DNA of 64,000 nucleotides from NCBI GenBank assembly GCA_035577985.1, contig DATJZY010000029.1:23954-87953 (forward strand). The letters run 5' to 3'. The stretch's first letter is position 1. Every line of letters starts with the position of its first letter. The notes under the pieces are model-generated. The model was not told where the DNA came from and searched no databases. It was given only the letters and a program-made list of their open reading frames with translations. The translations under genes and the position numbers were made by a program. This stretch comes from Candidatus Eiseniibacteriota bacterium. Its GTDB lineage: Bacteria; Desulfobacterota; Binatia; DP-6. This document shows, one piece after another, positions 8,573 through 55,779 of the stretch.

Positions 8573-8573
8573 C

Positions 8574-32106: not shown

Positions 32107-32707
32107 CGGACGGCGGCGCCCCAGGGACGACTCGGTTCGGATATGGGACGTCGATGCGCAGGGTCCCGAAGGCGCGATCGAAGATCGACAGGGTGGCACT
32201 GTAGTTGCAGTCGCGGCGCCGATGATGCGCCTCGTGGATGCGCGGCGTGACGTACCAGTTGAGCACGGGAACCCGCTGCCACCAATCGGGGAGCACCTCG
32301 CGGCCGCAATGCGCCAGCACGATGCTTCCCGAGAGGAAGACGCTGACCACGACGAGGGAGACGAGATGGATCGGGACGAGCGACATCGCCACCGGCATGA
32401 AGCCGATGATCAGCAGGGCCTCGAGGGGGTGGAACGCGAACGCGGTCAGCACCGTCGGCGCGGTGGAGCGATGGTGGACGGCGTGAATGCTCCGGTACAG
32501 GACCCGCGTGTGCAGCAGGCGATGCAGGACGTAGAAATAGACGTCGAAGAGCAGCACGTATCCGAGCACCTCGCCCGCGAAGGCGAGGCCCGTCGGGCAC
32601 TCGGTGGCGACGTGGAGCACGCCGCCCAGGACGAGGAACGTCGTGGCCATCCCCGTCGCGGTCACGAGGGCGAGCGTCACGATCGAATGACGCAGGTCGT
32701 GCTCCAC
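32084..32707 (-). CDS. Fatty-acid hydroxylase superfamily membrane protein, probably a carotene hydroxylase (CrtZ-like).
   Basis: Four transmembrane segments and the His-box motifs HRLLH, HAVHH and HEAHH, at CrtZ-like size (207 aa). It lies inside the carotenoid cluster. Confidence 0.7.
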   Translation of the reverse strand: MEHDLRHSIVTLALVTATGMATTFLVLGGVLHVATECPTGLAFAGEVLGYVLLFDVYFYVLHRLLHTRVLYRSIHAVHHRSTAPTVLTAFAFHPLEALLIIGFMPVAMSLVPIHLVSLVVVSVFLSGSIVLAHCGREVLPDWWQRVPVLNWYVTPRIHEAHHRRRDCNYSATLSIFDRAFGTLRIDVPYPNRVVPGAPPSVTASRRS

Positions 32708-32823
32708 CGACCTCCCCTGCTAGGGATTCGACCCGCTCGAAGCAAGGGCGTCGATGCCCTCGACAGAACCGGGGGCGCCGCCTACTGTCCCGCGGTCGAG
32801 AGCATGAAGCTGGTGCAGGCGGC

Positions 32824-41117: not shown

Positions 41118-41645
41118 ATGGACGTCCTCGGCATGTCGGGCAGCCTCCGTGCCGCATCGACGAACGCGCGCCTGCTGCGCGCCGCCGCGAAGCTCGCGCC
41201 CGACGGAATGCAGTTCACGTTCTACGACGAGCAGATCGCCGCCCTGCCCCACTTCAGCCCGGACCTGGACGGCGAACGAGCCGCGGCTCCGCCTGCGGTG
41301 GCCGACCTCCGGCGACGCCTCTCGGCCGCCGACGCGGTGCTCATCTGCTGTCCGGAGTACGCGCACGGCGTTCCCGGTGCGTTCAAGAACGCGCTCGACT
41401 GGATCGTGTCGAGCGGCGAGCTCACCGACAGGCCGGTCGCGCTCGTCATGGCGTCGGCCAGCGGGGCGGAGCACGCACGTGCGGCGCTCGCGTCCACGCT
41501 CCGGGTCATGGGCGCGAACCTCGTCTTCGAGCGGTCGCTCGCCTTCTCGCCGAGGTACCTGGGGGCGGACGGCAGCATCCTCGACCCGGAGGCGGAGCGC
41601 GCCGTCCGCGAAGCCGTCGTCGCGCTCAGTCGTCCTTCGCCTTGA
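41118..41645 (+). CDS. NAD(P)H-dependent FMN reductase (flavodoxin-like fold).
   Basis: Family pattern: MSGSLRAASTNARLLRAA, YDEQIAALPHFSPDLD, DAVLICCPEYAHGVPGAFKNALDW. Confidence 0.75.
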   Translation: MDVLGMSGSLRAASTNARLLRAAAKLAPDGMQFTFYDEQIAALPHFSPDLDGERAAAPPAVADLRRRLSAADAVLICCPEYAHGVPGAFKNALDWIVSSGELTDRPVALVMASASGAEHARAALASTLRVMGANLVFERSLAFSPRYLGADGSILDPEAERAVREAVVALSRPSP

Positions 41646-44600
41646 ACTGTCCCGGGTCGTTGCGCTGGATGCCGATGCCGACGTGCTGGGTCTTCCAGCA
41701 CGGTCCGTTGGTCGACTGCAGCTGGACCACGACCGGCGCGGTGAGCGGCAGGGCGAACGGCGGGATGTTGTCTCCCTTGGCCTTCAGGTGGATCGTCGTC
41801 CCGCCGCGGACCAAGCTCGACTTGAGAAGGACCTTCGCGATGCCCTGCGGCGTGCGCGCCTGATCCGTGTATTTGTAGCCGATGGTCGAGATCGGCTTCC
41901 AGCACGGACCGGTGCCGCAGGTGCCGCCGGCGGGTGCCACGAGCGAGAGCGCGAGACGACCGCCGTCCTCGTCGAAGATGCAGAGCGTGTAGGAGTTGGT
42001 CATGGTCGGATCGCGGAACTCGGAGATGGTCGTGGCGTCACCCTTCATGAGCTTCCACGCCACCAGGTCACCGGCGTTCGGAACCCGGTCGGAGATCTGG
42101 ATCTTGCCCTTGAGCGGCAGCACCGGACCGCGACAGGTGGGACGCGGCCCCTTCTGGCAGCCGGCGCTGGGCTCGCAGATCTCGCACGCATCGCAGACGA
42201 CGGGCGTCCCGGTCGTGCAGATGCCGCTGGCGCAGGTCTCGCCGCTGGTGCACGCATTGCCGTCATCGCACGGGGTGCCATCGGGCTCCGGCGGCCCGAC
42301 GCACTGCCCGAGGCTCTCGTTGCACTGGCCGATGCGGCACTCGCCTCCGACCGCGCTACAGTCGCGCGGGCTGCCGGTGCAGCTCCCACCGCCGCACGTG
42401 TCGTTCACCGTGCAGAACAGGCCGTCGTTGCAGGGGAGCGTGTTGTTCGTGTGCGTGCAGCCGCCCGTCGGCGTACACGAGTCGGTGGTGCACGGGTTCC
42501 CGTCGTTGCAGTTCGGCGGCGGGCCACCCTGACAGGTTCCGCCATTGCAGGCATCCCCGGTCGTGCACGAGTTGCCGTCGTTGCACGGCGCGTTGTTGAA
42601 GACGTGCACGCAACCCGACACCGGGTTGCAGCTGTCGTCGGTACAGGGGTTGCCGTCGTTGCACGAGACCGGATCGCTGAGGCAGGCGTGGCCGACGCAC
42701 CGCTCGTTGGTGCTGCATTGGTCGCTGTCCGCACATTGCGAGTCGACGTTGCAGCAGCCGGCGATCGGCGAGTGTGCGCAGCCGGAGACGGGGTTGCAGC
42801 TGTCGGCCGTGCAGGGATTCGTGTCGTCGCAGTTGGCTGACGCGCCGGCGGTACAGGTCCCGCCGCCGCAGATATCGCCGACCGTGCAGGCGTTGCCGTC
42901 GGAGCAGGAGGCCGTGTTGTTGGTGTGCTGGCATCCCGTGGCGGGAACGCAGGTATCCGTCGTGCAGACGTTGAGGTCGTTGCAGTCGGGCGGGGACCCG
43001 CCGACGCACGAGCCCCCGGCGCAGGTGTCGTTCGTCGTGCACGCATTCCCGTCGTTGCACGGGCTCGTGTTGTTCGTGTTCACGCAGCCCGAGCCGGGGT
43101 TGCACGTGTCGTCGGTGCAGCCGTTCGAATCGTTGCAGTTGAGCGGGGGGCCGGGCACGCAGACGCCGCCGTTGCATGCGTCACTCGCCGTGCAGGCGTT
43201 GCCGTCGGTGCACGGGGCGGTGTTGTTGGAGTGCGTGCAGCCCGACACCGGGTTGCAGCCGTCGTCGGTGCACGGGTTGCCGTCGTCGCAGTTGAGGGAG
43301 CCACCGGGGACGCAGACACCGCCCGCGCACGTGTCGCCCACCGTGCAGAGGCTGCCGTCGCTGCAGGAGGAGGTATTGTTGGTGTGCGTACATCCCGACG
43401 CGGGATTGCAGCCGTCGGTGGTGCAGACGTTGCCGTCGTCGCAGTTGGGCGGCGCGCCGGGCACGCAGCTGCCGCCGCTGCACGTGTCACCCACCGTACA
43501 GGCGCTGCCATCGCTGCACGGCGCCGTGTTGTTCGTGTGCGTGCACCCCGACGCGGGATTGCAGCCGTCGTCGGTACACACGTCGCCGTCGTCGCAGTTG
43601 GGTGGGGTGCTGCCGACGCACGTTCCGCCCGCGCAGACGTCGACGGTCGTGCAGGCGTCGCCGTCGTCGCACGGTGCCGTGTTGTTCGGATGCGTGCACG
43701 CCCCCGCGCCGTTGCACTGGTCGTTGGTGCAGGCGTTGCCGTCGTTCGTGCACGGCGTGCCGGCGGTGACGGCGCAGTTGTTGAGGGTCTCGTTGCAGAC
43801 GTTGTTGCACTCCGGGCCGCCGAGGCAGGGATTCCCGGCGTGGGTCGCGCATCGCAGCTGGCTGCCGTTGCACGTGTCGGCTCCCGTGCAGAACGCGCCG
43901 TCGTCGCACGTCGCGGTCGCATCGAAGAGCGCGTTGCTCGCGGTCCACACCGGCCCGTTGGTGAGCGTCCCGGAGGTGGCCGGGCTGCCGACGGAGTCGG
44001 CGATCGTGGTGCCCGTGTTCTCGCCGAGACCCCAGCGTGCCACCAGGCCCGTCCCCGACGTCAGCTGCGACGACATCGTCGACTGGATCTGGGTCTGGGT
44101 GCGCGCCAGGTTCCAGATGCGCACCTCGTCGAGCAGGCCGGCGAACGCGCCGGTCGCAGGCGTGCCGGTCGTCGTCAGCATGCCGGCGAGGGCGGCAGGC
44201 TGCAGGCTGTCGAAGCGCGGAGTCGCACCCGGAACGAGCGATCCCTCGAGGTTGCCGTCGAGGTACAGGCGCATGGTCGTGCCGTCGAACGTGACGGCCG
44301 CGTGGTGCCAGTTGTTGTTCACGATCGCCGTCGTGCCGGACAGGGGATGGTTGCCGCCGGTCGCCGTGTCCTCGAAGTCGGCGGCGATCACATTGCCCGT
44401 CGTGTTGATCCCGAGGATGTAGTTCGCGTCGCAGCGACCGTCACCCGTCGGGCAGCCGGCGCCGTCGGCCTGGGGGGCACCCTTGGAGACCAGCGGCACG
44501 AAGGTCGAGATGCCGCCGCTTCCGGTGCTGCCGACGGTGCCCGTCCCTTCGCGCTTGAACCAGGTCTCGACGGTGAACATCGAGAGCCCGAGCTCGGCGG

Positions 44601-45468
44601 CGTTGCCGAAGGTTACGTAGTCGTTCGTCCCGTCGAAGCGCAGCATCGTGTTGGTGGCATTGGCGCACGGCGCGATGTCGAACGGCGCGCCGGTGGTCCA
44701 GGCGAAGTTCGTCCCGGTGATGGTACCGTTCTGGGCGGGTCCGGCGGAGTCGCCCACCGTCGTGCCGGACCCCTCCCCGAGTCCCCAGCGTGCCACCAGA
44801 TTCGGATCCGACGGGTTCTGGACGTTCATCGTGGCGCGGATCTGCGTCGCGGTCCTGGCCGTTCCCCAGATGCGGGCTTCATCGATGCGCCCGTCGAAGA
44901 ACCCGTTCGGCGTCCCGGTCGACGTGAGCATCGTCGCGAGACCGGCGTGTTGAATGCTGTCGGAGCGGGCAGGAGCACCGACCGCGAGCTCGGCTTCGAG
45001 CTCGCCGTTCAGGTAGAGACGCCAGGTGGTGCCGTCGTACGTCGCGGCCGCGTGATACCAGACGTTGCTCTGGATCGATGTGACGCCGACGACGGGATGG
45101 TTGTTGCCGAGCGGGCCGGGCCCGCCGGCCCCTTCCTCGAAGTCGGCGGCGAGCACGTTGCCGGTCGTGCTGATGCCGAGCACGTAGTTCGCATCGAGGT
45201 TGGAGCCGTCGGCCTCCGAAGCGCCCTTGGTTACGAGCGGAACCAGGGTGACCCCGTTGCTGCCCGTCGATGCGGAAATTCCCGTGCCCTGCCGATTGAA
45301 CCACGTCTCCAGCGTGAAGGTGGCGAGCCCGAGCGCCGACGGATTGCCGAAGGTCACGTAGGCATTGTTCGGCGAACCGGACGACGGGGCGAAGTCGAGA
45401 CCGGAATCCTGGGCCGACGCGATGCTCGCGAGGACGACGATCGAAGTTGCGACGACGCGCACGAACAT
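41626..45468 (-). CDS. Giant secreted multi-domain protein, paralog A (1,280 aa). Architecture: signal peptide, two LamG/ConA-like domains, ~13 Myxococcales-type Cys-rich repeats, then a conserved ~165-aa C-terminal module.
   Basis: Signal peptide MFVRVVATSIVVLASIASAQ. Two LamG-like units (..TFTLETWFNRQGTG..WYHAAATYDGTTWRLYLNGEL.. and ..FTVETWFKREGTG..WHHAAVTFDGTTMRLYLDGNL..). Tandem ~42-aa repeats of the form CxDGNxCTxDxCNPxSGCTHxNNTxPCxDGxACTxGDTCxGGxCVxGxPPN. The C-terminal module ends ...RNDPGQFKAKDD. Confidence 0.8.
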   Translation of the reverse strand: MFVRVVATSIVVLASIASAQDSGLDFAPSSGSPNNAYVTFGNPSALGLATFTLETWFNRQGTGISASTGSNGVTLVPLVTKGASEADGSNLDANYVLGISTTGNVLAADFEEGAGGPGPLGNNHPVVGVTSIQSNVWYHAAATYDGTTWRLYLNGELEAELAVGAPARSDSIQHAGLATMLTSTGTPNGFFDGRIDEARIWGTARTATQIRATMNVQNPSDPNLVARWGLGEGSGTTVGDSAGPAQNGTITGTNFAWTTGAPFDIAPCANATNTMLRFDGTNDYVTFGNAAELGLSMFTVETWFKREGTGTVGSTGSGGISTFVPLVSKGAPQADGAGCPTGDGRCDANYILGINTTGNVIAADFEDTATGGNHPLSGTTAIVNNNWHHAAVTFDGTTMRLYLDGNLEGSLVPGATPRFDSLQPAALAGMLTTTGTPATGAFAGLLDEVRIWNLARTQTQIQSTMSSQLTSGTGLVARWGLGENTGTTIADSVGSPATSGTLTNGPVWTASNALFDATATCDDGAFCTGADTCNGSQLRCATHAGNPCLGGPECNNVCNETLNNCAVTAGTPCTNDGNACTNDQCNGAGACTHPNNTAPCDDGDACTTVDVCAGGTCVGSTPPNCDDGDVCTDDGCNPASGCTHTNNTAPCSDGSACTVGDTCSGGSCVPGAPPNCDDGNVCTTDGCNPASGCTHTNNTSSCSDGSLCTVGDTCAGGVCVPGGSLNCDDGNPCTDDGCNPVSGCTHSNNTAPCTDGNACTASDACNGGVCVPGPPLNCNDSNGCTDDTCNPGSGCVNTNNTSPCNDGNACTTNDTCAGGSCVGGSPPDCNDLNVCTTDTCVPATGCQHTNNTASCSDGNACTVGDICGGGTCTAGASANCDDTNPCTADSCNPVSGCAHSPIAGCCNVDSQCADSDQCSTNERCVGHACLSDPVSCNDGNPCTDDSCNPVSGCVHVFNNAPCNDGNSCTTGDACNGGTCQGGPPPNCNDGNPCTTDSCTPTGGCTHTNNTLPCNDGLFCTVNDTCGGGSCTGSPRDCSAVGGECRIGQCNESLGQCVGPPEPDGTPCDDGNACTSGETCASGICTTGTPVVCDACEICEPSAGCQKGPRPTCRGPVLPLKGKIQISDRVPNAGDLVAWKLMKGDATTISEFRDPTMTNSYTLCIFDEDGGRLALSLVAPAGGTCGTGPCWKPISTIGYKYTDQARTPQGIAKVLLKSSLVRGGTTIHLKAKGDNIPPFALPLTAPVVVQLQSTNGPCWKTQHVGIGIQRNDPGQFKAKDD
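42131..43915. repeat. Coding tandem-repeat array inside paralog A. The units are ~126 bp and encode the Cys-rich repeat (~13 copies).
   Basis: Periodic recurrence of TGCAACGACGGCAACG/TGCACGCAC...AACAACAC codon strings. The boundaries are approximate. Confidence 0.6.
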
Positions 45469-45980
45469 CTGCTAATCCCTTCGCGCCACGGTGCGGTCTC
45501 AATAGACAGAGATAAGGGTATCCCTGTCAAGACGGAAGAGAATGAAGTAGCGCCGTGTCTCGCGTTTTCTTCGGTCCGTGTCGCTTGCGTCCTGCGCTGT
45601 AGCGCCTGCGCTAGGCGGGGGCCGCCGGGGCGCAGGCCGCGAGAGGCTGAGCATCATCTCGTCGCCGGTCGCGCCATCGTCACGTGCGTCGCCCTGGTGT
45701 GCGGCCGTCGCGTCTCGGCCAACATCTCTTTGTGCAGCAAGGAGCTACGACCGGCGCCCGCCAGGGAGCGCGTGGGCGAAAATCCGTTGACGCTCCGGTG
45801 AGCCGTCCCGGTGGCGCGACGCTCACGCCGCTCCGGTCGCGTCGAGTCGGACTTCTTCGTGTCGCGAAATCGTGCGTTTGGCGGACTCCAACCCCGTGTT
45901 TTCACTTGACGTAGTGGACCGTAGGCAGGTTAGAACGGTGACTCGCACTCGCTGCAACGATGTTACGTCCCGGAGGCAGA
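45469..45980. promoter_or_regulatory. 512-bp divergent intergenic region between paralog A (-) and paralog B (+), presumed to hold promoters for both.
   Basis: No credible ORF. The GC content is visibly lower next to the paralog A start (ctaatcccttcgc...aatagacagagataagggtatccctgtcaagacggaagagaatgaagtag). A GGAGG ribosome-binding site lies 4 nt before the paralog B ATG, and a TTGACG hexamer at ~45906. Confidence 0.4.
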
Positions 45981-48900
45981 ATGATGACAAGTCACGTTAT
46001 CTCGTCCCTCCGAAAGCTCTCTGCGACCACCGCCCTGCTGATCGCGATCGCCGCCTACCCCGGCGTCGCCGGCGCCCAGATGGCGCTGCGCCTCGGGCCG
46101 ACCAACACGACGACGTACGTCACGTTCGGTGCGACCTCGGCGCTGGGGCTCGCCACGTTCACGGTCGAGACGTGGTTCAATCGACAGGGGACGGGTGTCG
46201 CGACGTCGACGGGAAGCGGCGGACTCGCCTCCTTCGTTCCGCTCGTGACCAAGGGGGCCGCGCAGGGCGACGCGAGCAACGTCGACGCCGACTACGTGCT
46301 CGGCATCAACACCGCCGGCAACGTCATCGCGGCGGACTTCGAAGAGGGCGGCGCCGGGACCTCGCCGGGGTTGAACCACCCGCTCTCGGGCGTCACGCCC
46401 GTCGTCAACAATACCTGGTACCACGCGGCGGTCACCTACGACGGCACCACGCTGCGCCTCTACTTGAACGGCGAGGTCGAAGCCGAGCTGGTGGTCGGCC
46501 AGCCGACGCGGTCCGACAGCATCCAGCATGCGGCGCTCGGCACCACGCTCACGTCGACCGGAACGCCGAGCGGTTTCTTCGACGGCACGCTCGACGAGGC
46601 CCGGATCTGGAACGTCGCGCGCACGCAGGCGCAGATCCGCGCGACCATCAATACCCAGAATCCGTCGGATGGCACGCTGGTCGCGCGGTGGGGCCTCGAC
46701 GAGACGTCCGGAACGACCGTCAACGATTCGGCCGGAACCCCGCAGAACGGCACCATCACCGGCACGAGCTTCAGCCGGGTTGCGAATGCGCCGTTCGACA
46801 TCCTCACCTGCGCCGGCAACGCGAGCTCGATGATCCGCCTGGACGGCGTCAACGACTACGTCGCCCTCGGCAACCCCGCCGAGCTCGGCCTCACGAGCTT
46901 CACGATCGAAACCTGGTTCAAACGGGAAGGTGTCGGCGTCGGCAACACCACGGGGGCTGGAGGCATCGGTGGAACCGGAGGCCCGCCCGGCTCCCTGGTC
47001 CCGCTCATCACCAAGGGGGCACCCGAGGCCGACGGCTCGAACCTCGACGCCAACTACATCTTCGGCATCAACACGACGGGCAACGTGCTCGCCGCCGACT
47101 TCGAGGAAGGGCCCGGGGGGCCCGGCCCGCTCGGCGCGAACCATCCGATCGTCGGCGTGACCGCCATCACCGACAACAACTGGCATCATGCCGCCGCGAC
47201 CTACAGCACCGCGACGCGCGACTGGCGTCTCTATCTCGACGGCGCGCTCGAAGTCTCCGCGATCCAGGGGGCGGGTGTGGTCCCCCGCTCGGACAGCCTC
47301 CAGCCGGCCGCGCTCGGCACCATGCTCACCTCGACGAGCACGCGACTCGGCGCGTTCGCGGGCGTGCTCGACGAAGTCCGGATCTGGAACGTCGCCCGGA
47401 CCCAGGCGCAGATCCAGGCCGACATGTCGAACCAGCTCACCTCCGGAACGGGGCTCGTGGCGCGCTGGGGGCTCGGCGAGGGGACCGGAACGACGGCCGC
47501 GGACTCCGTCGCGCCGGCATCGAACGGCACGCTGACGAACGGGCCGGTCTGGACCGCCAGCAGCTCGCTCTTCGACGCCACCGCCGCGTGCAGCGACGGC
47601 GCATTCTGCAACGGCGCCGACACCTGCAGCGGCATCGGAGCCAACGGACTCCGCTGCACGACGCACGCCGGCGATCCCTGCACCGCAGGCGCGGAGTGCA
47701 ACAACGTCTGCAACGAGACCCTCGACAACTGCGCCGTCACCGCCGGCACGCCGTGCACGAACGACGGCAACGCCTGCACCGACGACCAGTGCAACGGCGC
47801 GGGGGCCTGCACGCATCCGAACAACACGGCGCCCTGCAACGACGGCAGCGCCTGCACGACCGTCGACGTCTGCGCGGGCGGAACGTGCGTCGGCAGCATT
47901 CCGCCCAACTGCGACGACGGCAACGTCTGCACCACCGACGGCTGCAACCCCGCGTCCGGGTGCACGCATGCCAACAACACGGTCTCGTGCAGCGACGGCA
48001 GCGCCTGTACGGTGGGTGACACGTGCAGCGGCGGCACCTGCGTTGCCGGCCCGCCGCCGAACTGCGACGACGGCAACGTCTGCACCACCGACGGCTGCAA
48101 CCCCGCGTCGGGGTGCACGCACACCAACAACACGGCACCGTGCAGCGACGGCAGCGTCTGCACGGTGGGCGACACGTGCGCGGGTGGCGTCTGCGTCCCC
48201 GGTGGCTCCCTCAACTGCAACGACGGCAACCCCTGCACCGACGACTCCTGCAACCCCGTGACCGGCTGCGTCGCCACCAACAACACCGCCTCCTGCTCGG
48301 ACGGCAACGCCTGCACCACCGGCGACGTCTGTAGCGGCGGCTCCTGCGTGGGCGGGCCTCCCCTCGTGTGCAACGACGGCAACCCCTGCACCGACGATTC
48401 CTGCAACCCCGCCACCGGCTGCGTCGCCACCAACAACGCCGCGTCCTGCTCGGACGGCAACGTCTGCACCACCGGCGACGTCTGTAGCGGCGGCTCCTGC
48501 GTCGGCGGGCCTCCGCTCGTCTGCAACGACGGCAACCCCTGCACCGACGATCAGTGCAATCCCACGACCGGCTGCTTCGCCCTCAACAACGCCGCCCCGT
48601 GCGACGACGGCAATGCCTGCACGACCGCCGACACGTGTGCAGGCGGCTCGTGCATGCCCGGCGCTCCGCTCTCCTGCAACGACGGGAACGTCTGCACGGA
48701 CGACGGCTGCAACCCCGCGTCGGGGTGCACGCATGCCAACAACTCCGCTCCATGCAGCGACGGCAGCGCCTGCACGACGGGCGACCTTTGCGCGGGCGGT
48801 GCGTGCGTCGGTGGGCCGCCGGCCAACTGCGACGACGGGAACGTCTGCACCGACGACGCCTGCAACCCCGCATCGGGGTGCACGCATGCCAACAACTCGG

Positions 48901-50480
48901 CTCCGTGCAACGACGGCAGCCAGTGCACGACGGCCGATACCTGCGCCGGCGGCGCCTGCGTCGGCGGGCCTCCACCCGACTGCAACGACGGCAACGTCTG
49001 CACCGACGATGCCTGCAATCCCGCATCGGGGTGCACGCACACGAACAACACCGCGTCGTGTGACGACGCCAATGGCTGCACGTCGAACGATGCGTGCGCC
49101 GGCGGCACCTGCCAGGGTGGCCCGCCGACCGTCTGCGACGATGGCAACGCCTGCACGGCCGACTCCTGTTCGAGCCCGAGCGGCTGCCAGCACACGGCGA
49201 TCGCCGGCTGCTGCAACACGAACGCGCAGTGCGCAGATACCGACCTGTGCACGACGAACGAACGATGCGTGGCGCACGCCTGCGTCAGCGACCCCGTGAG
49301 CTGCAACGACGGCAACCCGTGCACCGACGACGGCTGCAACCCGCCGAGCGGATGCCTGCACGTCCCCAACAACCTTCCGTGCAGCGACGGCGACGCGTGC
49401 ACGACGGCCGATGCCTGCAGCGGAGGAGCCTGCATCGGAGGTCCGCCGCCCAATTGCAACGACGGCAACCCGTGTACCGACGATGCCTGCAACCCCGCTG
49501 GCGGCTGTACGCACACCAACAATACGGCGCCCTGCAGCGACGGGTCGTTCTGCACGACGGGCGACACCTGCAGCGCAGGGAGCTGCGTCGGCGGCCCGCC
49601 ATCCAACTGCAACGACGGCAATCCGTGCACCGATGACGCGTGCAATCCGTCGTCCGGCTGCACGCACACGAACAACGCCCTGCCCTGCAGCGACGGCGCG
49701 TTCTGCACCGTCGGCGACGTCTGCGCGGGCGGCGCGTGCACCGGCACGCCCCGCGACTGCAATTCGGCCGGCGATCAGTGCCACACCGGCACGTGCGACG
49801 AGGGGCTCGACCAGTGCGTCGGACCGGCCAAGCCGAACGGGAGCCCGTGCAACGACGGAGACGTGTGCACGACCGGGGAAACGTGCACGAGCGGATCCTG
49901 TGGCGGCGGCACGCCAACGGTCTGCGCCGCCTGCGAGACGTGCGACGCCACCGGCGGCTGCCAAGTCGGGCCACGGACCGACTGTCGGGCGTCGATCCAG
50001 GCATCCTCGAGCAAGCTCGCCATCTACGACAAGACGCCCGACACGGCTCTGGTGTCGTGGAAGTGGTCCAAGGGAGACGCGACGTCGGTCGAGGATCTCG
50101 GAGACCCCCTCGTGACCACGGACTACACGCTGTGCATCTTCGACCAGAACGGGCTGGCGGTCCGGGCGACGGCGCCCGCCGGCGACGACTGCGGGGCGAA
50201 GCCGTGCTGGAAGGCGCTCGGCCTCATCGGCTTCAAGTATTCGGACAAGGACCGGACGCCCGAGGGCGTTCTCAAGCTGCTCCTCAAGTCGGGGGACTCC
50301 GGCCGGGCGAAGGCCCGCATCAAGGCGAAGGGCTCCAACATTCCGATCATGGCGCTCCCGCTGGCACCACCCGTGACGGCGCAGCTCCAGGCCGCCGGCA
50401 ACGCCTGCCTGGAGAGCACGCACAGCGCGAGCAGCATCCTCCGCAACGAGGACACCGTGTTCAAGGCGAAGAGCGACTGA
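45981..50480 (+). CDS. Giant secreted multi-domain protein, paralog B (~1,500 aa). Same architecture as paralog A with ~18 Cys-rich repeats.
   Basis: Start chosen at the ATG 45981, preceded by GGAGG (the track's 45960 ATG lies upstream of the ribosome-binding site). Signal peptide MMTSHVISSLRKLSATTALLIAIAAYPGVAGA. Two LamG-like units, a repeat array, and the conserved C-terminal module ending ...RNEDTVFKAKSD. Confidence 0.8.
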   Translation: MMTSHVISSLRKLSATTALLIAIAAYPGVAGAQMALRLGPTNTTTYVTFGATSALGLATFTVETWFNRQGTGVATSTGSGGLASFVPLVTKGAAQGDASNVDADYVLGINTAGNVIAADFEEGGAGTSPGLNHPLSGVTPVVNNTWYHAAVTYDGTTLRLYLNGEVEAELVVGQPTRSDSIQHAALGTTLTSTGTPSGFFDGTLDEARIWNVARTQAQIRATINTQNPSDGTLVARWGLDETSGTTVNDSAGTPQNGTITGTSFSRVANAPFDILTCAGNASSMIRLDGVNDYVALGNPAELGLTSFTIETWFKREGVGVGNTTGAGGIGGTGGPPGSLVPLITKGAPEADGSNLDANYIFGINTTGNVLAADFEEGPGGPGPLGANHPIVGVTAITDNNWHHAAATYSTATRDWRLYLDGALEVSAIQGAGVVPRSDSLQPAALGTMLTSTSTRLGAFAGVLDEVRIWNVARTQAQIQADMSNQLTSGTGLVARWGLGEGTGTTAADSVAPASNGTLTNGPVWTASSSLFDATAACSDGAFCNGADTCSGIGANGLRCTTHAGDPCTAGAECNNVCNETLDNCAVTAGTPCTNDGNACTDDQCNGAGACTHPNNTAPCNDGSACTTVDVCAGGTCVGSIPPNCDDGNVCTTDGCNPASGCTHANNTVSCSDGSACTVGDTCSGGTCVAGPPPNCDDGNVCTTDGCNPASGCTHTNNTAPCSDGSVCTVGDTCAGGVCVPGGSLNCNDGNPCTDDSCNPVTGCVATNNTASCSDGNACTTGDVCSGGSCVGGPPLVCNDGNPCTDDSCNPATGCVATNNAASCSDGNVCTTGDVCSGGSCVGGPPLVCNDGNPCTDDQCNPTTGCFALNNAAPCDDGNACTTADTCAGGSCMPGAPLSCNDGNVCTDDGCNPASGCTHANNSAPCSDGSACTTGDLCAGGACVGGPPANCDDGNVCTDDACNPASGCTHANNSAPCNDGSQCTTADTCAGGACVGGPPPDCNDGNVCTDDACNPASGCTHTNNTASCDDANGCTSNDACAGGTCQGGPPTVCDDGNACTADSCSSPSGCQHTAIAGCCNTNAQCADTDLCTTNERCVAHACVSDPVSCNDGNPCTDDGCNPPSGCLHVPNNLPCSDGDACTTADACSGGACIGGPPPNCNDGNPCTDDACNPAGGCTHTNNTAPCSDGSFCTTGDTCSAGSCVGGPPSNCNDGNPCTDDACNPSSGCTHTNNALPCSDGAFCTVGDVCAGGACTGTPRDCNSAGDQCHTGTCDEGLDQCVGPAKPNGSPCNDGDVCTTGETCTSGSCGGGTPTVCAACETCDATGGCQVGPRTDCRASIQASSSKLAIYDKTPDTALVSWKWSKGDATSVEDLGDPLVTTDYTLCIFDQNGLAVRATAPAGDDCGAKPCWKALGLIGFKYSDKDRTPEGVLKLLLKSGDSGRAKARIKAKGSNIPIMALPLAPPVTAQLQAAGNACLESTHSASSILRNEDTVFKAKSD
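47589..49987. repeat. Coding tandem-repeat array inside paralog B (~18 units of ~126 bp).
   Basis: Same periodic Cys-rich repeat coding pattern as in paralog A. The boundaries are approximate. Confidence 0.6.
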
Positions 50481-50493
50481 CCGGAGAGAACTC

Positions 50494-53400
50494 GTGCCGC
50501 ATCGCCCTGCCCGAATCCTCCCCGCCCTGTTGGGACTCGTCGCATCGACGTTGGCGGTGGCCGCTCGCCCGGCGGCGGCGGCCTGCAGCAACCCCGGCGG
50601 CGCCTGCGCGATCGACTTCGGCGGGACGAATTCCTACGTCACGTTCGGCAACACGCCGGCGCTGGGGCTCCCGCAGTTCACCCTCGAGCTGTGGTTCAAC
50701 CGCCAGGGGACCGGCACGACCGCGACCACCGGAACCGGCGGCGTGACGGCGGTCCCACTCATCACCAAGGGGCGGGGCGAAGCCGACGGCAGCAACGTCG
50801 ACATGAACTACTTCCTCGGCATCCGCACCACCGACAACCTGTTGGTGGCCGACTTCGAGGAAGGCGCGGCGGGGGCGCAACCGGGACTGAACCATCCGAT
50901 CGCCGGCACGACGCCCATCGCAACGGGCGTCTGGTACCACGCCGCCGTGACCTACGACGGCGCCACGTGGCACCTGTACCTGAACGGCATTGTCCAGACG
51001 ACGCTGGCCGTGAACCAGCCGCCGCAAGCCGACAGCATCCAGCACGCCGCGCTCGCGACGGCGCTCACGTCGACGGGAGCGGCGGCCGGCTTCTTCGACG
51101 GTGTCATCGACGAGGCGCGCATCTGGAGCTACGCGCGCAGCGCGGCCGAGATCCAGGGAGCATTGAACCAGGAGGTCTACTCGGCACCCGGTCTGGTCGC
51201 TCGATGGGGCCTCAACGAGGGAACCGGCGGGACGGGAACCATCGTCGCCGACAGCGCGGCACCGCCGCAGAACGGCACGGTGATCGGTGCGAACTTCCAG
51301 TGGACCGACGGAGGTCCCGTAAGCGCGAACCTGCCGCCTGCCACGCCCGGCCTCAATGCGCCCGCCGACGGTGCGACGAACGTATCGACCGCCCCGGTCC
51401 TCGACGTCGCGGTGTCCGATCCGGAGCTGAGCCCTCTCGACGTCACCTTCTGGGGCCGAGAGGTCATCGCACCGGGTCCCGACTTCACGGTCGTCATCCT
51501 GCCCGACACGCAGTACTACTCGTGCGGAGTGCCCTGCAGCAGCAGCCCGGCGGTGTTCCAGTCGCAGACGCAGTGGATCGTCGACAACCGGCTCGCGCGC
51601 AACATCGCGTACGTCGGGCATCTCGGGGACTGCGTCGAGCACGGCAACCTCGGCAACGGCGTCGACCCGAACCCCGACTACGAATGGAACAACGCCTCCG
51701 CCGCGATGAGCCTCATCGAGGATCCGGTCGCGACGCAGCTCGCCGACGGCATGCCGTTCGGCATCCTTCCCGGCAACCACGACCAGACGCCCAACGGCGA
51801 TCCCGTGGGTACGCCGCCGGAGAACTCGACCGCCAAGTTCAACCAGTTCTTCGGCGTCTCGCGCTACAGCGGCAGGGCCTACTACGGCGGCCACTTCGGC
51901 ACGAACAACGACAACAACTACACCTTGTTCAGCGCGAGCGGGCTCGACTTCGTCGTCGTCGACCTCGAGTACGCTCCGACGCCCGATCCGGCCGTGCTGG
52001 CCTGGGCCGACGGCGTCCTGCAGGCCCACCCGACGCGACGCGCGATCGTCCTCACCCACCACATGCTCGGCACGGGCAACCCCGGGGCGTTCAGCGCACA
52101 AGGACAGGCGATCTACGACACCCTGAAGCACAACCCGAACCTCTTCCTGCTGCTCGGCGGCCACGTGCCCGGGGAGGGGCGGCGCCAGGACGTGTTCGAC
52201 GGCCGGGTCGTGAATTCGCTGCTCTCGGACTACCAGGGTCGCACGAACGGCGGGAACGGCTGGCTCCGCGTCATGACCTTCTCCCCGGCGAACGGCACGA
52301 TCCAGGTGCAGACGTACTCGCCCTGGCTGAACCAGTTCGAGACGGACGCCGACAGCCAGTTCACCCTCACCTACGACATGGCGACCACGGGGTTCGCCCC
52401 GATCGCAACCGTGCCCGGCGTCGCGTCGGGCACCAACGCGCAGGCGACCTGGGCGAGCCTGTTCCCCGGCATGAGCTACGAGTGGTACGTCACGGTGAGC
52501 GACGGCGCGAACACGTCGACGGGGCCGGTCTGGAGGTTCGCGACGGGGCTCTGCGGACCCGACGGAGCGTCCTGCAACGACGGCCTCTTCTGCAACGGAG
52601 CCGACTCCTGCAGCGGCGGCATGTGCAGTGTCCACGCGGGCGATCCGTGTGGCGGCGGCCCCGAGTGCGCCGAAACGTGCGACGAAGTGCGCGACGACTG
52701 CTTCGAGGCCGCCGGAACGCCGTGCACGGACGACGGTAACGCGTGCACGAACGACGTCTGCAGCGGAGCCGGAGCCTGCGTGCATCCGGAAACCACGGCC
52801 GCGTGCTCCGACGGAAACGCCTGCACCACGGGGGACGTCTGCAGCGGGGGCGCCTGCATCGGTGGGCCGCCGGCGAACTGCGACGACGCCAACCCGTGTA
52901 CCGACGACACCTGCGACCCCGCGACGGGTTGCCTCAACACCCCCAACACCGCCGCGTGCTCCGACGGCAGCGCCTGCACGGTGGGTGACACCTGCGCCGG
53001 CGGGAGCTGCGTCGGCGGTCCGCCGCTCGACTGCAACGACACCAACCCGTGCACCGACGATGGCTGCAACCCGGCTACGGGCTGCACCAACATTCCGAAC
53101 AACGCCGCGTGCGACGACGGGAATGCGTGCACCACCGTCGACGTCTGCAGCGCCGGCGCGTGTCAGGGAAGCATCCCGCCGAACTGCAACGACGGCAACC
53201 TCTGCACCGACGACACCTGCAACCCCGCGTCGGGGTGCGCGCACACCTTCAACACGACCTCCTGCGACGACGGCGACGCGTGCACCATCGACGACGCGTG
53301 CGGCGCGGGGACGTGTCATGGAGGGACGGCGGCCAACTGCGACGACGCCAACGCGTGTACGGCCGACAGCTGCGTCCCGGCGTCGGGCTGCGTCCACGCA

Positions 53401-54708
53401 CCGCTGCCCAACTGCTGCATGACCAACGCCCAGTGCGCCGATAGCGACCAGTGCACCACCAACGAGCGGTGCGTCGGCAACACCTGCGTGACCGATCCGG
53501 TCGGCTGCAACGACGCAAACCCCTGCACCAGCGACGGCTGCAATCCCGCGTCGGGCTGCACGCACACGCCCAACAACCTCCCCTGCAACGACGGCAACGC
53601 CTGCACGACGGCGGACGCCTGCAGCGGCGGCGCGTGCGTCGGCGGCCCTCCGCCCAACTGCAACGACCTCAACGTCTGCACGAACGATGCGTGCAGCCCG
53701 ACGTCGGGCTGCACGCACACGCCCAACACGGCGCCTTGCACGGATGGGATCTTCTGCAACGGCCTCGATACCTGCGCCGGAGGCACGTGCAGCGTCCACG
53801 GCGGCAATCCGTGTCCGGGTCCCGACGGCGACGGCGACTGCGCCGAATCGTGCAACGAGGCGACCGACCGCTGCACGGCGCCCGACCCCAACGGGTCGCC
53901 GTGCAACGACGGGCTCTACTGCACCGTCGGCGAGGTGTGCAACGCCGGCGTCTGCACCGGAACGCCGCGCGACTGCAGCTCCAGTGGCGATCAATGCCGC
54001 ACGGGCACGTGCAACGAGACCGCCGACGCGTGTGACGGGCCGCCCAAGCCCGACGGCACGCCCTGCGACGACGGCAACGCATGCTCGAACGGCGAGAGCT
54101 GCGTGGCCGGTGTGTGCTCCGGCGGTGCGCAGACCATCTGCCCCGCCTGCGAGACCTGCATCGCCCCGGGCGGCTGCCAGACGGGTGCTCGTCCCGATTG
54201 CCGGACCCCCATCGCTCCCCTCAGGGGAAAGCTGGTCGTCTTCGACCGGATGCCCGACGCGGGCGACGGCATCGCATGGAAGTGGAGCAAGGGCGCGGCG
54301 ACCGCCTTCGGGGATCTCGGCGATCCAGTGACGTCGACCGACTACACGCTGTGCATCTTCGACCACGGCGGCAGCCACCTCGCCGTGAAAGCCACCGCTC
54401 CCGCCGGCCGCATGTGCGGATCGGTCCCGTGCTGGAGGCGACTCGGAAGCTTCGGCTTCAAGTACACCGACAAGGGGCGGCTGCCCGAGGGTGTGCTGAA
54501 GGTCTTGATCCGCAGCGGGGGTAGCGGCTCCGCGAAGGCGCAGCTGAAGGCCAAGGGTGACGCCATCCCGCCCTTCGCGCTCCCGCTCGTCACTCCGGTC
54601 GTGGCGCAGCTCCAGGCGACCGGCGCCGCATGCTGGCAGACGGACCACGTGGGTCCGCCGGCGCTGCAGCGCAACGACGGCATGCAGTTCAAGGCCAAGG
54701 ACGAGTAG
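50494..54708 (+). CDS. Giant secreted multi-domain protein, paralog C (1,404 aa). Architecture: signal peptide, LamG-like domain, calcineurin-like metallophosphoesterase domain, ~12 Cys-rich repeats, conserved C-terminal module.
   Basis: GTG start 13 nt after the paralog B stop, with a GGAGAG ribosome-binding site. Signal peptide MPHRPARILPALLGLVASTLAVAARPAAAA. LamG unit (FTLELWFNRQGTG...WYHAAVTYDGATWHLYLNG). Metallophosphoesterase motifs (VVILPDTQYY, VGHLGDCVEHGN, ILPGNHDQ, LTHHMLG, GGHVPGEG). Repeat array, and a C-terminal module ending ...RNDGMQFKAKDE. Confidence 0.8.
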   Translation: MPHRPARILPALLGLVASTLAVAARPAAAACSNPGGACAIDFGGTNSYVTFGNTPALGLPQFTLELWFNRQGTGTTATTGTGGVTAVPLITKGRGEADGSNVDMNYFLGIRTTDNLLVADFEEGAAGAQPGLNHPIAGTTPIATGVWYHAAVTYDGATWHLYLNGIVQTTLAVNQPPQADSIQHAALATALTSTGAAAGFFDGVIDEARIWSYARSAAEIQGALNQEVYSAPGLVARWGLNEGTGGTGTIVADSAAPPQNGTVIGANFQWTDGGPVSANLPPATPGLNAPADGATNVSTAPVLDVAVSDPELSPLDVTFWGREVIAPGPDFTVVILPDTQYYSCGVPCSSSPAVFQSQTQWIVDNRLARNIAYVGHLGDCVEHGNLGNGVDPNPDYEWNNASAAMSLIEDPVATQLADGMPFGILPGNHDQTPNGDPVGTPPENSTAKFNQFFGVSRYSGRAYYGGHFGTNNDNNYTLFSASGLDFVVVDLEYAPTPDPAVLAWADGVLQAHPTRRAIVLTHHMLGTGNPGAFSAQGQAIYDTLKHNPNLFLLLGGHVPGEGRRQDVFDGRVVNSLLSDYQGRTNGGNGWLRVMTFSPANGTIQVQTYSPWLNQFETDADSQFTLTYDMATTGFAPIATVPGVASGTNAQATWASLFPGMSYEWYVTVSDGANTSTGPVWRFATGLCGPDGASCNDGLFCNGADSCSGGMCSVHAGDPCGGGPECAETCDEVRDDCFEAAGTPCTDDGNACTNDVCSGAGACVHPETTAACSDGNACTTGDVCSGGACIGGPPANCDDANPCTDDTCDPATGCLNTPNTAACSDGSACTVGDTCAGGSCVGGPPLDCNDTNPCTDDGCNPATGCTNIPNNAACDDGNACTTVDVCSAGACQGSIPPNCNDGNLCTDDTCNPASGCAHTFNTTSCDDGDACTIDDACGAGTCHGGTAANCDDANACTADSCVPASGCVHAPLPNCCMTNAQCADSDQCTTNERCVGNTCVTDPVGCNDANPCTSDGCNPASGCTHTPNNLPCNDGNACTTADACSGGACVGGPPPNCNDLNVCTNDACSPTSGCTHTPNTAPCTDGIFCNGLDTCAGGTCSVHGGNPCPGPDGDGDCAESCNEATDRCTAPDPNGSPCNDGLYCTVGEVCNAGVCTGTPRDCSSSGDQCRTGTCNETADACDGPPKPDGTPCDDGNACSNGESCVAGVCSGGAQTICPACETCIAPGGCQTGARPDCRTPIAPLRGKLVVFDRMPDAGDGIAWKWSKGAATAFGDLGDPVTSTDYTLCIFDHGGSHLAVKATAPAGRMCGSVPCWRRLGSFGFKYTDKGRLPEGVLKVLIRSGGSGSAKAQLKAKGDAIPPFALPLVTPVVAQLQATGAACWQTDHVGPPALQRNDGMQFKAKDE
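52573..54203. repeat. Coding tandem-repeat array inside paralog C (~12 units of ~126 bp).
   Basis: Same periodic Cys-rich repeat coding pattern. The boundaries are approximate. Confidence 0.6.
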
Positions 54709-54739: not shown

Positions 54740-55779
54740 TGTCGCTGCTCTGAACGTTGTTCACCCGGGACCTCCTGGGGCAAAGGGTTTGTACCCCTAC
54801 AAATCCAACGCCACAGGAGGGAGCCCGAGTGCGAGTGCATCGTAACGCAAAGACGACCCCGAGGGGCAGAGTCCTGCTGGTCGAGCGCGTAATGGCGGGC
54901 GGCTGGACGATGAAGCAAGCCGCGACGGCGTGCGGCATCAGCGTGCGAACCGGGTACAAATGGCTGGCGCGGTTTCGGGCGGAGGGAGCGGCGGGGCTGG
55001 GGGATCGCCCTTCGGTCCCGCATCGGTGTCCGCACCGCACCCGGGCCCGGCTCGAGCAGTGGATCGTGGGCTTGCGAGCGCGGCGGCTGAGCAGTCCGGT
55101 GATCGCGTATCGGACCGGGATTCCGCGGGCGACGGTCGGCAACGTGCTGCGCCGCCATGGGCTCGGGCGCTTGCCGCCGCGGGAGCCGCCGGGGCCGGTG
55201 CGCCGCTACGAGCGCGCGCGGCCGGGCGAGCTCGTGCACATCGATACGAAAGCCTTGGGCCGTATCGCCGGCGTCGGCCACCGCATTCACGGCGATCGCC
55301 GCACGCGGGTGCGCGGCATCGGGTGGGAGCACGTCCACGTGTGCATCGACGACGCGAGCCGGCTCGCCTACGTCGAGACACGCGCGACGAACCAGCAGCA
55401 CGATGCGATCGGCTTCCTTGAGCGCGCGCTTGCGTGGTTTGCGGCGCGCGGGGTACGCGTCGAGTCCGTGATGAGCGACAACGGGTCGGCGTATCAGGCG
55501 CGCGCGTTTACGGCGGCGTGTGTCCGGCTCGGCCTCCGCCATCTGCGCACGCGGCCCTACACGCCACGCACCAACGGCAAAGCCGAGCGCTTCATCCAGA
55601 CGCTGCTCCGGGAATGGGCCTACGCGCGCGCTTACGCGACCTCTGCCCGGCGCCGGCGCGCGCTCCAGCCGTGGCTGCGCTACTACAACCACCGCCGCCC
55701 GCACACCGCCCTTCGCGGACGGGCGCCGATCACCCGGCTCCAGGAGGTCGCGGCATGAACAACCTCCTGAGCAGCGACA
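54740..55779 (+). mobile_element. IS481-family insertion sequence (1,040 bp), with ~40-bp imperfect terminal inverted repeats and a 6-bp target-site duplication.
   Basis: Left inverted repeat TGTCGCTGCTCTGAACGTTGTTCACCCGGGACCTCCTGG (54740-). The reverse complement of the right end is TGTCGCTGCTCAGGAGGTTGTTCATGCCGCGACCTCCTGG (-55779). A single DDE transposase ORF lies inside. The size matches IS481 (~1.04 kb). It is flanked by the direct repeat GCTAGA, which matches the NCTAGN target preference I recall for IS481. Confidence 0.8.
54829..55758 (+). CDS. IS481-family DDE transposase (integrase catalytic core).
   Basis: Likely GTG start at 54829, preceded by AGGAGGG (the track ORF begins at 54757, inside the inverted repeat). 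The N-terminal helix-turn-helix region is VRVHRNAKTTPRGRVLLVERVMAGGWTMKQAATACGISVRTGYKWLARFRAEG. The rve-like core is ELVHIDTK..., ...HVCIDDASR..., ...SDNGSAYQARAFTAACVRLGLRHLRTRPYTPRTNGKAERF. Confidence 0.8.
   Translation: MRVHRNAKTTPRGRVLLVERVMAGGWTMKQAATACGISVRTGYKWLARFRAEGAAGLGDRPSVPHRCPHRTRARLEQWIVGLRARRLSSPVIAYRTGIPRATVGNVLRRHGLGRLPPREPPGPVRRYERARPGELVHIDTKALGRIAGVGHRIHGDRRTRVRGIGWEHVHVCIDDASRLAYVETRATNQQHDAIGFLERALAWFAARGVRVESVMSDNGSAYQARAFTAACVRLGLRHLRTRPYTPRTNGKAERFIQTLLREWAYARAYATSARRRRALQPWLRYYNHRRPHTALRGRAPITRLQEVAA

What the first reader, a model, noticed from the sequence alone, without database searches (positions are those of the whole stretch)
49988..50480. Conserved ~165-aa C-terminal module shared by all three giant paralogs (also at 41626..~42130 and ~54204..54708)
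After the repeat arrays, each paralog ends with a collinear module: CRxxIxxLxGKLxIxDxxPDxxDxxxWKWxKGxATxxxDxGDPxxxTDYTLCIFDxxGxxLAxxATAPAGxxCGxxPCWKxLGxxGFKYxDKxRxPEGVLKVLLKSGxSGxAKAxxKAKGxNIPxxALPLxxPVxAQLQAxGxACWxTxHVGxxxxRNDxxxFKAKD[DE]. It has a conserved Cys pattern and a fixed FKAK(D/S)(D/E) C-terminus. The lipase-like protein and the other secreted Cys-rich proteins in the window lack it. It could be a family-specific anchoring, sorting or oligomerisation domain. I do not recognise it as any named sorting signal (it is far larger than a PEP-CTERM- or MYXO-CTERM-type tail).
Basis: seen in the sequence. Interest (0 to 1): 0.6.

Follow-up and report, generated by a model that had tools for sequence, protein, structure and literature searches.

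The report
Unnamed C-terminal domain of secreted proteins
The shared tail of the three giant proteins is a real, compact, disulfide-bonded all-beta domain of about 177 residues; it belongs to a very large family that no database names, it sits at the very end of thousands of different exported proteins of uncultured bacteria, and it most likely holds those proteins on the cell surface, though nobody has tested this.

Summary
Three ORFs (45960-50480 +, 50494-54708 +, 41626-45468 -) end in collinear modules that are 47-58% identical (tblastn E 1e-45 to 1e-58). All three end in FKAK[SD][DE]. There is no fourth copy in the window.

The module is not a degenerate Cys-rich repeat. It matches nothing in Pfam-A, NCBIfam or PDB sequences.

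It is not specific to these paralogs. An exhaustive profile search finds 6,991 clusters (1,518 at E<=1e-30). More than 40 partner domain families occur upstream of it. 85-92% of copies lie within 5 residues of the stop codon. The end is fixed: F-K-[AGD]-K-[SAG]-D.

AlphaFold with 105 sequences gives pLDDT 96.3 and 13 strands. Foldseek finds no PDB match (best TM about 0.36-0.39).

The hosts are MAGs labelled Binatia, "delta proteobacterium" or Polyangiaceae. NCBI labels the window's MAG Candidatus Eisenbacteria. A single peptide pattern already finds 8 loci in one genome.

Best reading (about 0.4): a non-covalent cell-surface docking "foot" below a stalk and a head domain. Rivals are a secretion or sorting domain, a lectin/CBM-like targeting module, and an oligomerisation domain. 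The function is inferred, not shown.

The parts
49959..50477 (+). C-terminal module of paralog A (173 aa, from the first conserved Cys to the last residue, ...FKAKSD). The stop codon is at 50478-50480.
54175..54705 (+). C-terminal module of paralog B (177 aa, ...FKAKDE). The stop codon is at 54706-54708. The stretch 54163-54705 is the sequence that was modelled.
41629..42159 (-). C-terminal module of paralog C (177 aa, ...FKAKDD). The stop codon is at 41626-41628.
45960..50480 (+). Paralog A gene (1506 aa): signal peptide, two Laminin_G_3 domains, a Cys-rich Dicty_CTDC stalk (about 47589-49958; 125 Cys in 790 aa), then the module.
50494..54708 (+). Paralog B gene (1404 aa): signal peptide, one Laminin_G_3 domain, a Metallophos domain, a Cys-rich stalk (about 52573-54174), then the module. 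Part of a cluster that includes NCBI HXJ33276.1.
41626..45468 (-). Paralog C gene (1280 aa): signal peptide, two Laminin_G_3 domains, a Cys-rich stalk (about 42160-43908), then the module. Identical to NCBI HXJ33274.1.

Best explanation
The module is an autonomous, extracytoplasmic, disulfide-stabilised all-beta domain of about 177 residues. It has 13 predicted strands and six conserved Cys, and its surface is usually basic. It belongs to a large family that no database names.

Proposed mechanism: the protein is exported by a Sec signal peptide. The module folds in the oxidising compartment. It then acts as the 'foot' that docks the protein non-covalently to a conserved component of the cell envelope or matrix, most likely an anionic one. 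The stalk (Cys-rich repeats, TSP3-like repeats or P/T-rich linker) projects the variable head domains outward (LamG here; propellers, proteases and esterases elsewhere).

Shown: the domain exists, its boundaries, its distribution, its positional bias, its fixed terminus, its fold confidence, and export signals on its carriers. Inferred: that it docks at all, and what it docks to.
For: - Real, well-defined domain: AlphaFold with 105 sequences gives pLDDT 96.3 and pTM 0.91, and the terminal FKAK forms the last strand.
- All six Cys are present in 141 of 147 representatives. The median pI is 8.7 and the median net charge +4; the window copies carry +3 to +9.
- Carriers are exported. 84 of 135 proteins that start with Met have a Sec-type N-terminus, and only 6 of those look like lipoproteins.
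- Position: 132 of 153 occurrences among representatives, and 84 of 91 in genome loci, lie within 5 residues of the C-terminus.
- What precedes the module is spacer-like. Of 228 occurrences that could be scored, 118 follow a Cys-rich stretch, 29 a P/T/S linker, and several of the remaining 81 follow TSP3-like repeats.
- More than 40 partner families occur upstream of it. Several partners match families that elsewhere are MYXO-CTERM, PEP-CTERM, T9SS-dependent or choice-of-anchor proteins.
- Homologues of the window's LamG head in other lineages end in T9SS type A sorting domains (P0319, P0328, P0387), in a GC-type dockerin-like match that falls below NCBIfam's cut-off (P0325), or in hydrophobic C-terminal tails (P0291, P0324). 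The module therefore occupies the slot that anchoring or sorting elements occupy elsewhere.
- It can function away from a C-terminus. There are proteins made only of a signal peptide and the module (P0074, P0108), N-terminal placements followed by a linker and an enzyme (P0077, P0087, P0107), and two-copy proteins with one internal copy (P0004, P0027). This fits a binding domain better than a positional export signal.
- It occurs in many copies per genome: one peptide pattern, present in only 36 of 147 representatives, already finds 8 loci in each of two assemblies.
- Paralogues within one genome are as diverged (46% identity) as copies from different genomes (42%). This fits a conserved common ligand rather than fast-evolving pairwise partners.
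Against: - No binding partner, ligand or localisation datum exists for any member.
- No conserved neighbouring gene was found in 78 loci.
- The very strong C-terminal bias and the exactly fixed terminus are unusual for a mere binding module and would suit a recognition signal: 221 of 280 proteins stop at the profile's last column, and the terminal residue is D in 65-72%.
- P/T linkers, N- or C-terminal placement and attachment to hydrolases are also the hallmarks of carbohydrate-binding modules aimed at external substrates.
Confidence: 0.4

Rival explanations
1. The module is a secretion or sorting domain. A dedicated outer-membrane translocon or attachment machinery of these lineages recognises it, as the T9SS recognises its C-terminal domain, and may remove it or modify it covalently afterwards.
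For: - 85-92% of copies are at the extreme C-terminus.
- The terminus is fixed as F-K-x-K-[SAG]-D-COOH.
- There are many cargo paralogues per genome with unrelated passenger domains.
- Head homologues in other phyla carry T9SS CTDs in the same position.
Against: - Some proteins consist only of a signal peptide and the module, and N-terminal and internal copies exist.
- At 177 aa with three probable disulfides it is far larger and more elaborate than known sorting domains.
- There is no HMM match to Por_Secre_tail, CHU_C or any CTERM signal.
- No machinery gene is linked to it in the window or in 78 loci.
Confidence: 0.2
2. The module is a lectin- or CBM-like targeting domain. It binds an external polymer or the surface of another cell, and so brings enzymes and adhesins to a substrate rather than to the producer's own envelope.
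For: - The predicted domain is all-beta, with nearly invariant aromatic residues (W39, W41, Y61, W91, Y101, W158).
- P/T-rich linkers join it to other domains, and it is fused to GHL15, a F510_1955-type glycosylhydrolase, a SASA esterase, an S8 peptidase and lactonases.
- Its position is flexible, and secreted stand-alone copies exist.
Against: - Most partners are not enzymes. They are Cys-rich repeats, delta-60/DUF5122 propellers and LamG domains.
- No CBM or lectin family matches by sequence.
- Foldseek gives no match, and hhalign against the window's own LamG domains gives a probability of 0.05%.
- The C-terminal bias is stronger than is usual for CBMs.
Confidence: 0.25
3. The module is an oligomerisation domain that assembles the stalked proteins into multimers or fibres.
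For: - It sits at the terminal position below long stalks.
- Its core is conserved across paralogues.
Against: - Nothing in the data points to self-association.
- Monomeric AlphaFold confidence is already very high.
- Stand-alone copies and enzyme fusions are not obviously explained.
- Multimer prediction could not be run.
Confidence: 0.07
4. The module is only a further degenerate Cys-rich repeat, or a diverged copy of a well-described domain.
For: It follows the Cys-rich array directly and contains six Cys.
Against: - There is no internal repeat: hhalign of the N-terminal half against the C-terminal half gives a probability of 1.9%.
- The predicted fold is a single 13-strand domain.
- It occurs after P/T linkers, after TSP3-like repeats and after signal peptides, without any Cys-rich array.
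- It has no match in Pfam, NCBIfam or PDB sequences even at E<=10.
Confidence: 0.01

Closest known systems
T9SS C-terminal sorting domains (type A Por_Secre_tail TIGR04183/PF18962; type B CHU_C)
   Same: Both are folded beta-rich domains at the extreme C-terminus of many unrelated Sec-exported proteins, with many cargo paralogues per genome. Homologues of the window's LamG head carry a type A CTD in the equivalent position.
   Different: - There is no sequence match.
- The module is 177 aa against about 70-100 aa.
- It has six conserved Cys.
- It also occurs N-terminally, internally and alone.
- Most carriers are labelled Binatia or 'delta proteobacterium', not Bacteroidota.
Dockerin-type docking modules (including GC-type dockerin, NF041540)
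   Same: Both are autonomous, mostly C-terminal modules that attach diverse secreted proteins non-covalently to a surface partner. This is the behaviour proposed here. One LamG-head homologue (P0325) ends in a GC-type dockerin-like match that falls below the curated cut-off.
   Different: There is no sequence match. Dockerins are about 60-70 aa EF-hand-like helical modules, whereas this is a 177-aa all-beta domain. No cohesin-like partner has been identified.
MYXO-CTERM, PEP-CTERM and IPTL-CTERM tripartite sorting signals on stalked surface proteins (for example the TraA-type layout of head, Cys-rich repeats and C-terminal signal; from general knowledge of these families)
   Same: The overall layout is the same: signal peptide, head domain, Cys-rich stalk, C-terminal element. 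Partner domains overlap (myxo_disulf_rpt, delta-60 repeat).
   Different: Those signals are about 25-35 residues long, with a motif, a hydrophobic helix and a basic tail. The module is a 177-aa soluble domain that ends in FKAKSD and has no hydrophobic segment.
Carbohydrate-binding modules and ConA-like (LamG) lectin domains
   Same: The size (about 150-180 aa), the all-beta architecture, the conserved aromatic residues, the linker-separated modular use and the fusion to hydrolases are all shared.
   Different: No CBM or lectin HMM matches. hhalign against the window's LamG domains gives a probability of 0.05%. Foldseek finds no PDB analogue.

Membership tests
T9SS type A/B C-terminal sorting domain | Match to Por_Secre_tail (TIGR04183/PF18962) or to CHU_C | tested here: not met
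   No such hit was found for the three window modules or for 48 family members, even at E<=10. True CTDs in LamG-head homologues were detected by the same library.
T9SS type A/B C-terminal sorting domain | Obligatory extreme C-terminal position | tested here: not met
   85-92% of copies are C-terminal, but N-terminal (P0077, P0087, P0107), internal (P0004, P0027) and stand-alone (P0074, P0108) copies exist.
T9SS type A/B C-terminal sorting domain | Co-occurrence with T9SS machinery (PorU/V, SprA and others) in the same genomes | not testable with these tools
   Only loci of about 12 kb were available. No machinery gene recurs in them.
PEP-CTERM / MYXO-CTERM / IPTL-CTERM type signals | Short motif, then a hydrophobic transmembrane helix, then a basic tail at the C-terminus | tested here: not met
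   The proteins end in F-K-x-K-[SAG]-D, the last residues form a beta strand, and there is no hydrophobic segment. No NCBIfam CTERM model matches.
Dicty_CTDC / myxo_disulf_rpt Cys-rich repeats | Match to PF00526 or TIGR02232; a short unit of about 24-38 aa that repeats | tested here: not met
   The repeat models hit the stalk but not the module. The only hits in module sequences are 2 of 48 at E>=0.38. There is no internal repeat.
Dockerin (including GC-type dockerin NF041540) | HMM match; duplicated Ca-binding loop-helix motif of about 60-70 aa | tested here: not met
   There is no hit. The predicted structure is all-beta.
ConA-like lectin/LamG or CBM | Sequence or profile similarity, or a jelly-roll fold match | tested here: not met
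Autotransporter / outer-membrane beta-barrel C-terminal domain | A barrel of about 250-300 aa with long amphipathic strands and a terminal aromatic residue | tested here: not met
   The module has 177 aa and strands of 3-9 residues. It is Lys-rich and soluble-like, and its terminal residue is D. There is no Pfam hit.

The most novel reading that the evidence does not exclude
The module is the cargo tag of a protein-sorting or surface-attachment system that has not yet been described. The system would be shared by Binatia-type 'delta proteobacterial' lineages and the window's Eisenbacteria-labelled organism. It would be functionally analogous to the T9SS CTD or to PEP-CTERM/exosortase, but built on an unrelated 177-residue disulfide-bonded domain that has no detectable fold relative in the PDB.
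Probability: 0.2. Interest if true: 0.8.

Novelty: new variant of a known kind. Interest (0 to 1): 0.55.

Why it matters
- If the reading is right, the module defines the surface-displayed or secreted proteome of Binatia-like bacteria and of the window's Eisenbacteria-labelled organism. No member of these groups is represented by an isolate among the genomes found here. One HMM would pick out many surface proteins per genome.
- It also offers a handle for finding the partner: an envelope ligand or a piece of machinery.
- The family is very large (6,991 clusters at 50% identity). It has a confident structure prediction, no Pfam or NCBIfam entry, and no Foldseek-detectable PDB analogue. It is therefore an obvious candidate for curation and for a first experimental structure.
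- Tempering this, the result is a domain of unknown function. Many such domains exist, and its role is inferred only from architecture.

Tried and rejected
- A word-index homology search with one module found only 3 hits. The exhaustive profile search was needed to see the family.
- The first AlphaFold run, with 6 sequences, was poor (pLDDT 63). It was superseded by the 105-sequence run.
- Foldseek against PDB and against BFVD gave nothing significant. The weak top hits (C2 domains, MD-2, GFP, archaeal flagellin) have TM<=0.39 and were not interpreted.
- A profile search against PDB sequences gave 0 hits.
- The search for related loci with the 48-sequence alignment failed for lack of a conserved stretch. 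An 8-sequence alignment worked.
- A viral-contig scan found no relatives.
- Clustering of neighbouring ORFs in 78 loci gave only antisense artefacts and common metabolic families (luciferase-like, SDR, P450, CoA-transferase) and no linked partner.
- Internal duplication was rejected.
- A relationship to LamG was rejected.
- Concerted evolution within genomes is weak: 46% identity within genomes against 42% between them.
- PF24684 on P0170 turned out to cover an N-terminal fragment, not the module.
- Literature searches (Binatia/Binatota, Eisenbacteria, DUF4215/delta-60) found nothing on this domain.
- A suspected second shared C-terminal motif (KDKDxLxLRCxP) in the lipase-like ORF and the ORF at 62681 is not significant (E=1.2).
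Full report
**1. The observation**

The window carries three long ORFs with high third-position GC: A 45960-50480 (+, 1506 aa), B 50494-54708 (+, 1404 aa) and C 41626-45468 (-, 1280 aa).

In the correct frame the last 165-169 residues of the three proteins align collinearly. There are 68 invariant columns, identity is 48-58%, and the ends are FKAKSD, FKAKDE and FKAKDD. tblastn of each module against the window recovers only the three copies (E 1e-45 to 1e-58). The next best match has E=0.08. The lipase-like ORF (18448-21792, -) and the other Cys-rich ORFs therefore lack the module.

Pfam puts Laminin_G_3 domains and Dicty_CTDC repeats upstream of the module, plus a Metallophos domain in B. All three proteins start with signal-peptide-like N-termini.

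**2. What the module is not**

Scanned alone at E<=10, the three modules hit nothing meaningful in Pfam-A. The only hit is DUF7137 at E=0.022, below its cut-off. They hit nothing at all in NCBIfam.

The same holds across the family. No Pfam or NCBIfam model accounts for the module in 80 full-length members. Forty-eight module-only sequences give no recurrent hit even at E<=10. A profile search of all PDB sequences returns zero hits at E<=10.

There is no internal duplication (hhalign probability 1.9%). There is no relation to the proteins' own LamG domains (probability 0.05%).

**3. What it is**

A word-indexed search found only three relatives. An exhaustive profile search over 1.84 billion cluster representatives found 6,991 proteins at E<=1e-3, 5,764 at E<=1e-10 and 1,518 at E<=1e-30.

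The family consensus over 147 representatives is:

C-x7-C-r.p....k..l..kd..pd..D.l.WkW.kG.aT..adfGdP....dY.LC.yd...l...a.aPAGG.Cg.kpCWk..g..Gf.Y.d...tpdG.....Lk.G..GkAk..vkgkG..L..P.LPl.lPv.vQLq...G.CWea.ys......N....Fkak.d

All six Cys are present in 141 of 147 sequences. The window modules are 49959-50477 (+), 54175-54705 (+) and 41629-42159 (-).

**4. Architecture and distribution**

- Position: among representatives, 132 of 153 occurrences end within 5 residues of the C-terminus. In an independent set of genome loci the figure is 84 of 91.
- Terminus: 221 of 280 proteins stop exactly at the last profile column. The last six residues are F-K-[AGD]-K-[SAG]-D, and the terminal residue is D in 65-72%.
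- Sub-clade tail: in 10 of 288 proteins the motif SP[ST]xAF[LIV][DG] occurs; in 9 of them it extends the protein past the module as 'aGSPSGAFlD...VLD'.
- Exceptions to the C-terminal position are real. P0074 and P0108 consist of a signal peptide and the module only. P0077, P0087 and P0107 carry the module N-terminally, followed by a P/T linker and an Lcl_C domain, a GHL15 domain or an unknown region. P0004 and P0027 carry two copies, one of them internal.
- What precedes the module: a Cys-rich stretch in 118 of 228 occurrences that could be scored, a P/T/S-rich linker in 29, and something else in 81, several of them TSP3-like Ca-binding repeats.
- Partners: 40 Pfam families occur in just 80 proteins. 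They include DUF4215/myxo_disulf_rpt, Disintegrin, DUF5122/delta-60 propellers, Dicty_CTDC, WD40/PD40, lactonase, subtilase S8, SASA esterase and LamG.
- Export: the N-termini that could be judged are mostly Sec type I signal peptides.
- Charge: the module is usually basic, with a median pI of 8.7 and a median net charge of +4. The window copies carry +3 to +9.

**5. Hosts**

Paralog C is identical to NCBI HXJ33274.1. Paralog B represents the 90%-identity cluster that contains HXJ33276.1 (1383 aa). Both entries are annotated 'LamG-like jellyroll fold domain-containing protein' of a Candidatus Eisenbacteria MAG.

A scan of one genome per GTDB species with the single pattern WKWxKGxAT[ATS] gave 132 confirmed loci. 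All 80 that were listed are MAGs. Their labels are Candidatus Binatia, 'uncultured delta proteobacterium', Deltaproteobacteria, Polyangiaceae, Myxococcales or Thermodesulfobacteriota, plus a few unclassified 'bacterium' labels. Two labels are implausible (Klebsiella, Nitrosopumilus) and probably reflect mis-binning.

That pattern is present in only 36 of 147 representatives. It nevertheless finds 8 loci in each of two assemblies, so the true copy number per genome is probably several-fold higher. That last step is an inference.

Copies within one genome are about as diverged (46% identity) as copies from different genomes (42%). The nearest neighbour lies in the same genome for only 11 of 54 copies. 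These are old paralogues.

No relative was found in viral contigs. All source names are 'hypothetical protein', 'cysteine-rich repeat protein' or names derived from the N-terminal domains.

**6. Context**

In the window the neighbours are unrelated: Lnt, an NAD-binding/DUF2867 protein, an IS481 transposase directly after B, a P450, a SOD, a GMC oxidoreductase and a hybrid histidine kinase. Further away lie carotenoid, WS/DGAT and DUF2126/transglutaminase genes. All-against-all clustering of ORFs from 78 related loci finds no recurrent neighbour apart from antisense artefacts and common metabolic families. No linked sortase or secretion component exists.

**7. Function**

The most informative indirect evidence is what occupies the same slot in related proteins. 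Homologues of the window's LamG head occur in many phyla. Where their ends can be read, they are T9SS type A sorting domains (P0319, P0328, P0387), a GC-type dockerin-like match that falls below the curated cut-off (P0325), or hydrophobic C-terminal tails (P0291, P0324).

Several partner domains of the module also match families that NCBIfam names as MYXO-CTERM, PEP-CTERM, T9SS-dependent or choice-of-anchor proteins. The module therefore sits where surface-anchoring or sorting elements sit, at the base of stalk-like spacers.

Three observations argue against a purely positional export signal and for an autonomous binding domain: the module also works as a stand-alone secreted protein, it occurs at N-termini, and it occurs twice in one chain. 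Its basic charge suggests an anionic envelope or matrix ligand. This is an inference.

I therefore favour a non-covalent surface-docking 'foot' (about 0.4). The alternatives are a T9SS-CTD-like cargo tag for an unknown machinery (about 0.2), an outward-looking lectin/CBM-like targeting module (about 0.25) and an oligomerisation domain (about 0.07). The precisely fixed acidic terminus is the one feature that the docking model does not explain well. It keeps the sorting rival alive.

**8. Comparison and novelty**

The module behaves like T9SS CTDs, dockerins and CTERM signals in where it sits and in how many unrelated proteins carry it. It fails every membership test that could be run for them: HMM match, size, composition and obligatory position. 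It equally fails the tests for Cys-rich repeats, LamG/CBM domains and autotransporter barrels.

It is best described as a new, unnamed domain family that plays a known kind of role, that of a shared C-terminal module of exported proteins. Hence the rating 'new variant of a known kind'.

Interest is moderate (0.55). In its favour, the family is very large, it is confined to uncultured lineages, it is confidently modelled and it has no detectable fold relative. It would become quite interesting if a dedicated machinery were found. Against it, the function is at present inferred from architecture only, and domains of unknown function are common.

Noticed in passing
window 54757-55758 (+): An IS481-family transposase (LZ_Tnp_IS481, rve, HTH domains) starts 49 bp after the stop of paralog B, at the edge of the three-gene paralog cluster.
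   Followed up: partly
window 50494-54708 (+), aa 367-558: Paralog B carries a calcineurin-like phosphoesterase (Metallophos) domain where A and C carry a second LamG domain. The heads differ, while the stalk and the module are shared.
   Followed up: partly
family representatives P0011, P0019, P0020, P0037, P0039, P0047, P0058, P0071, P0081 (C-termini); P0068 (internal): A sub-clade extends past the module with a conserved short tail, 'aGSPSGAF[LIV]D', often followed by '...VLD'. The motif is found in 10 of 288 proteins examined (internal and upstream of the module in P0068) and in none of the 78 genome loci. Its meaning is unknown; it could be a further signal or a linker remnant.
   Followed up: partly
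window 18448-21792 (-), 21844-23070 (-), 62681-64000 (-): Three other apparently secreted proteins were seen. One is a 1114-aa lipase-like protein with a GHSLGG motif and no Pfam hit. One is a 409-aa protein with 42 Cys. One is a Cys-rich ORF that runs off the window end. None has the module. A faint 'KDKDxLxLRCxP' resemblance between two of them is not significant (E=1.2).
   Followed up: partly
L017 (CAMBZJ010000006.1) and L057 (CAXQPB010000152.1): Contigs that carry the module are filed under MAGs named Klebsiella pneumoniae and Nitrosopumilus sp. These are most likely mis-binned contigs.
   Followed up: no
L001 191-2233 (+): The closest metagenomic relative (P0001, called as a 180-aa protein) is a truncated gene call. 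The locus holds one 680-aa ORF (Cys-rich stalk plus module), and an antisense ORF (703-1491) was called over its middle. Antisense mis-calls also dominate the recurrent 'neighbour' clusters in the GC-rich loci.
   Followed up: yes
window 5954-11867 (+) and 29095-36098 (+): A cluster with an Alpha-E protein and a DUF2126/transglutaminase protein, and a carotenoid gene set (amine-oxidase-type desaturases, polyprenyl synthetase, lycopene cyclase fusion). Both are unrelated to the finding.
   Followed up: no
window 41626-54708: Among the three paralogs the module (49-58% identity) is no better conserved than the LamG heads (61-70%). Their collinearity reflects whole-gene duplication; C is divergent to A, and A and B are in tandem 13 bp apart.
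   Followed up: yes
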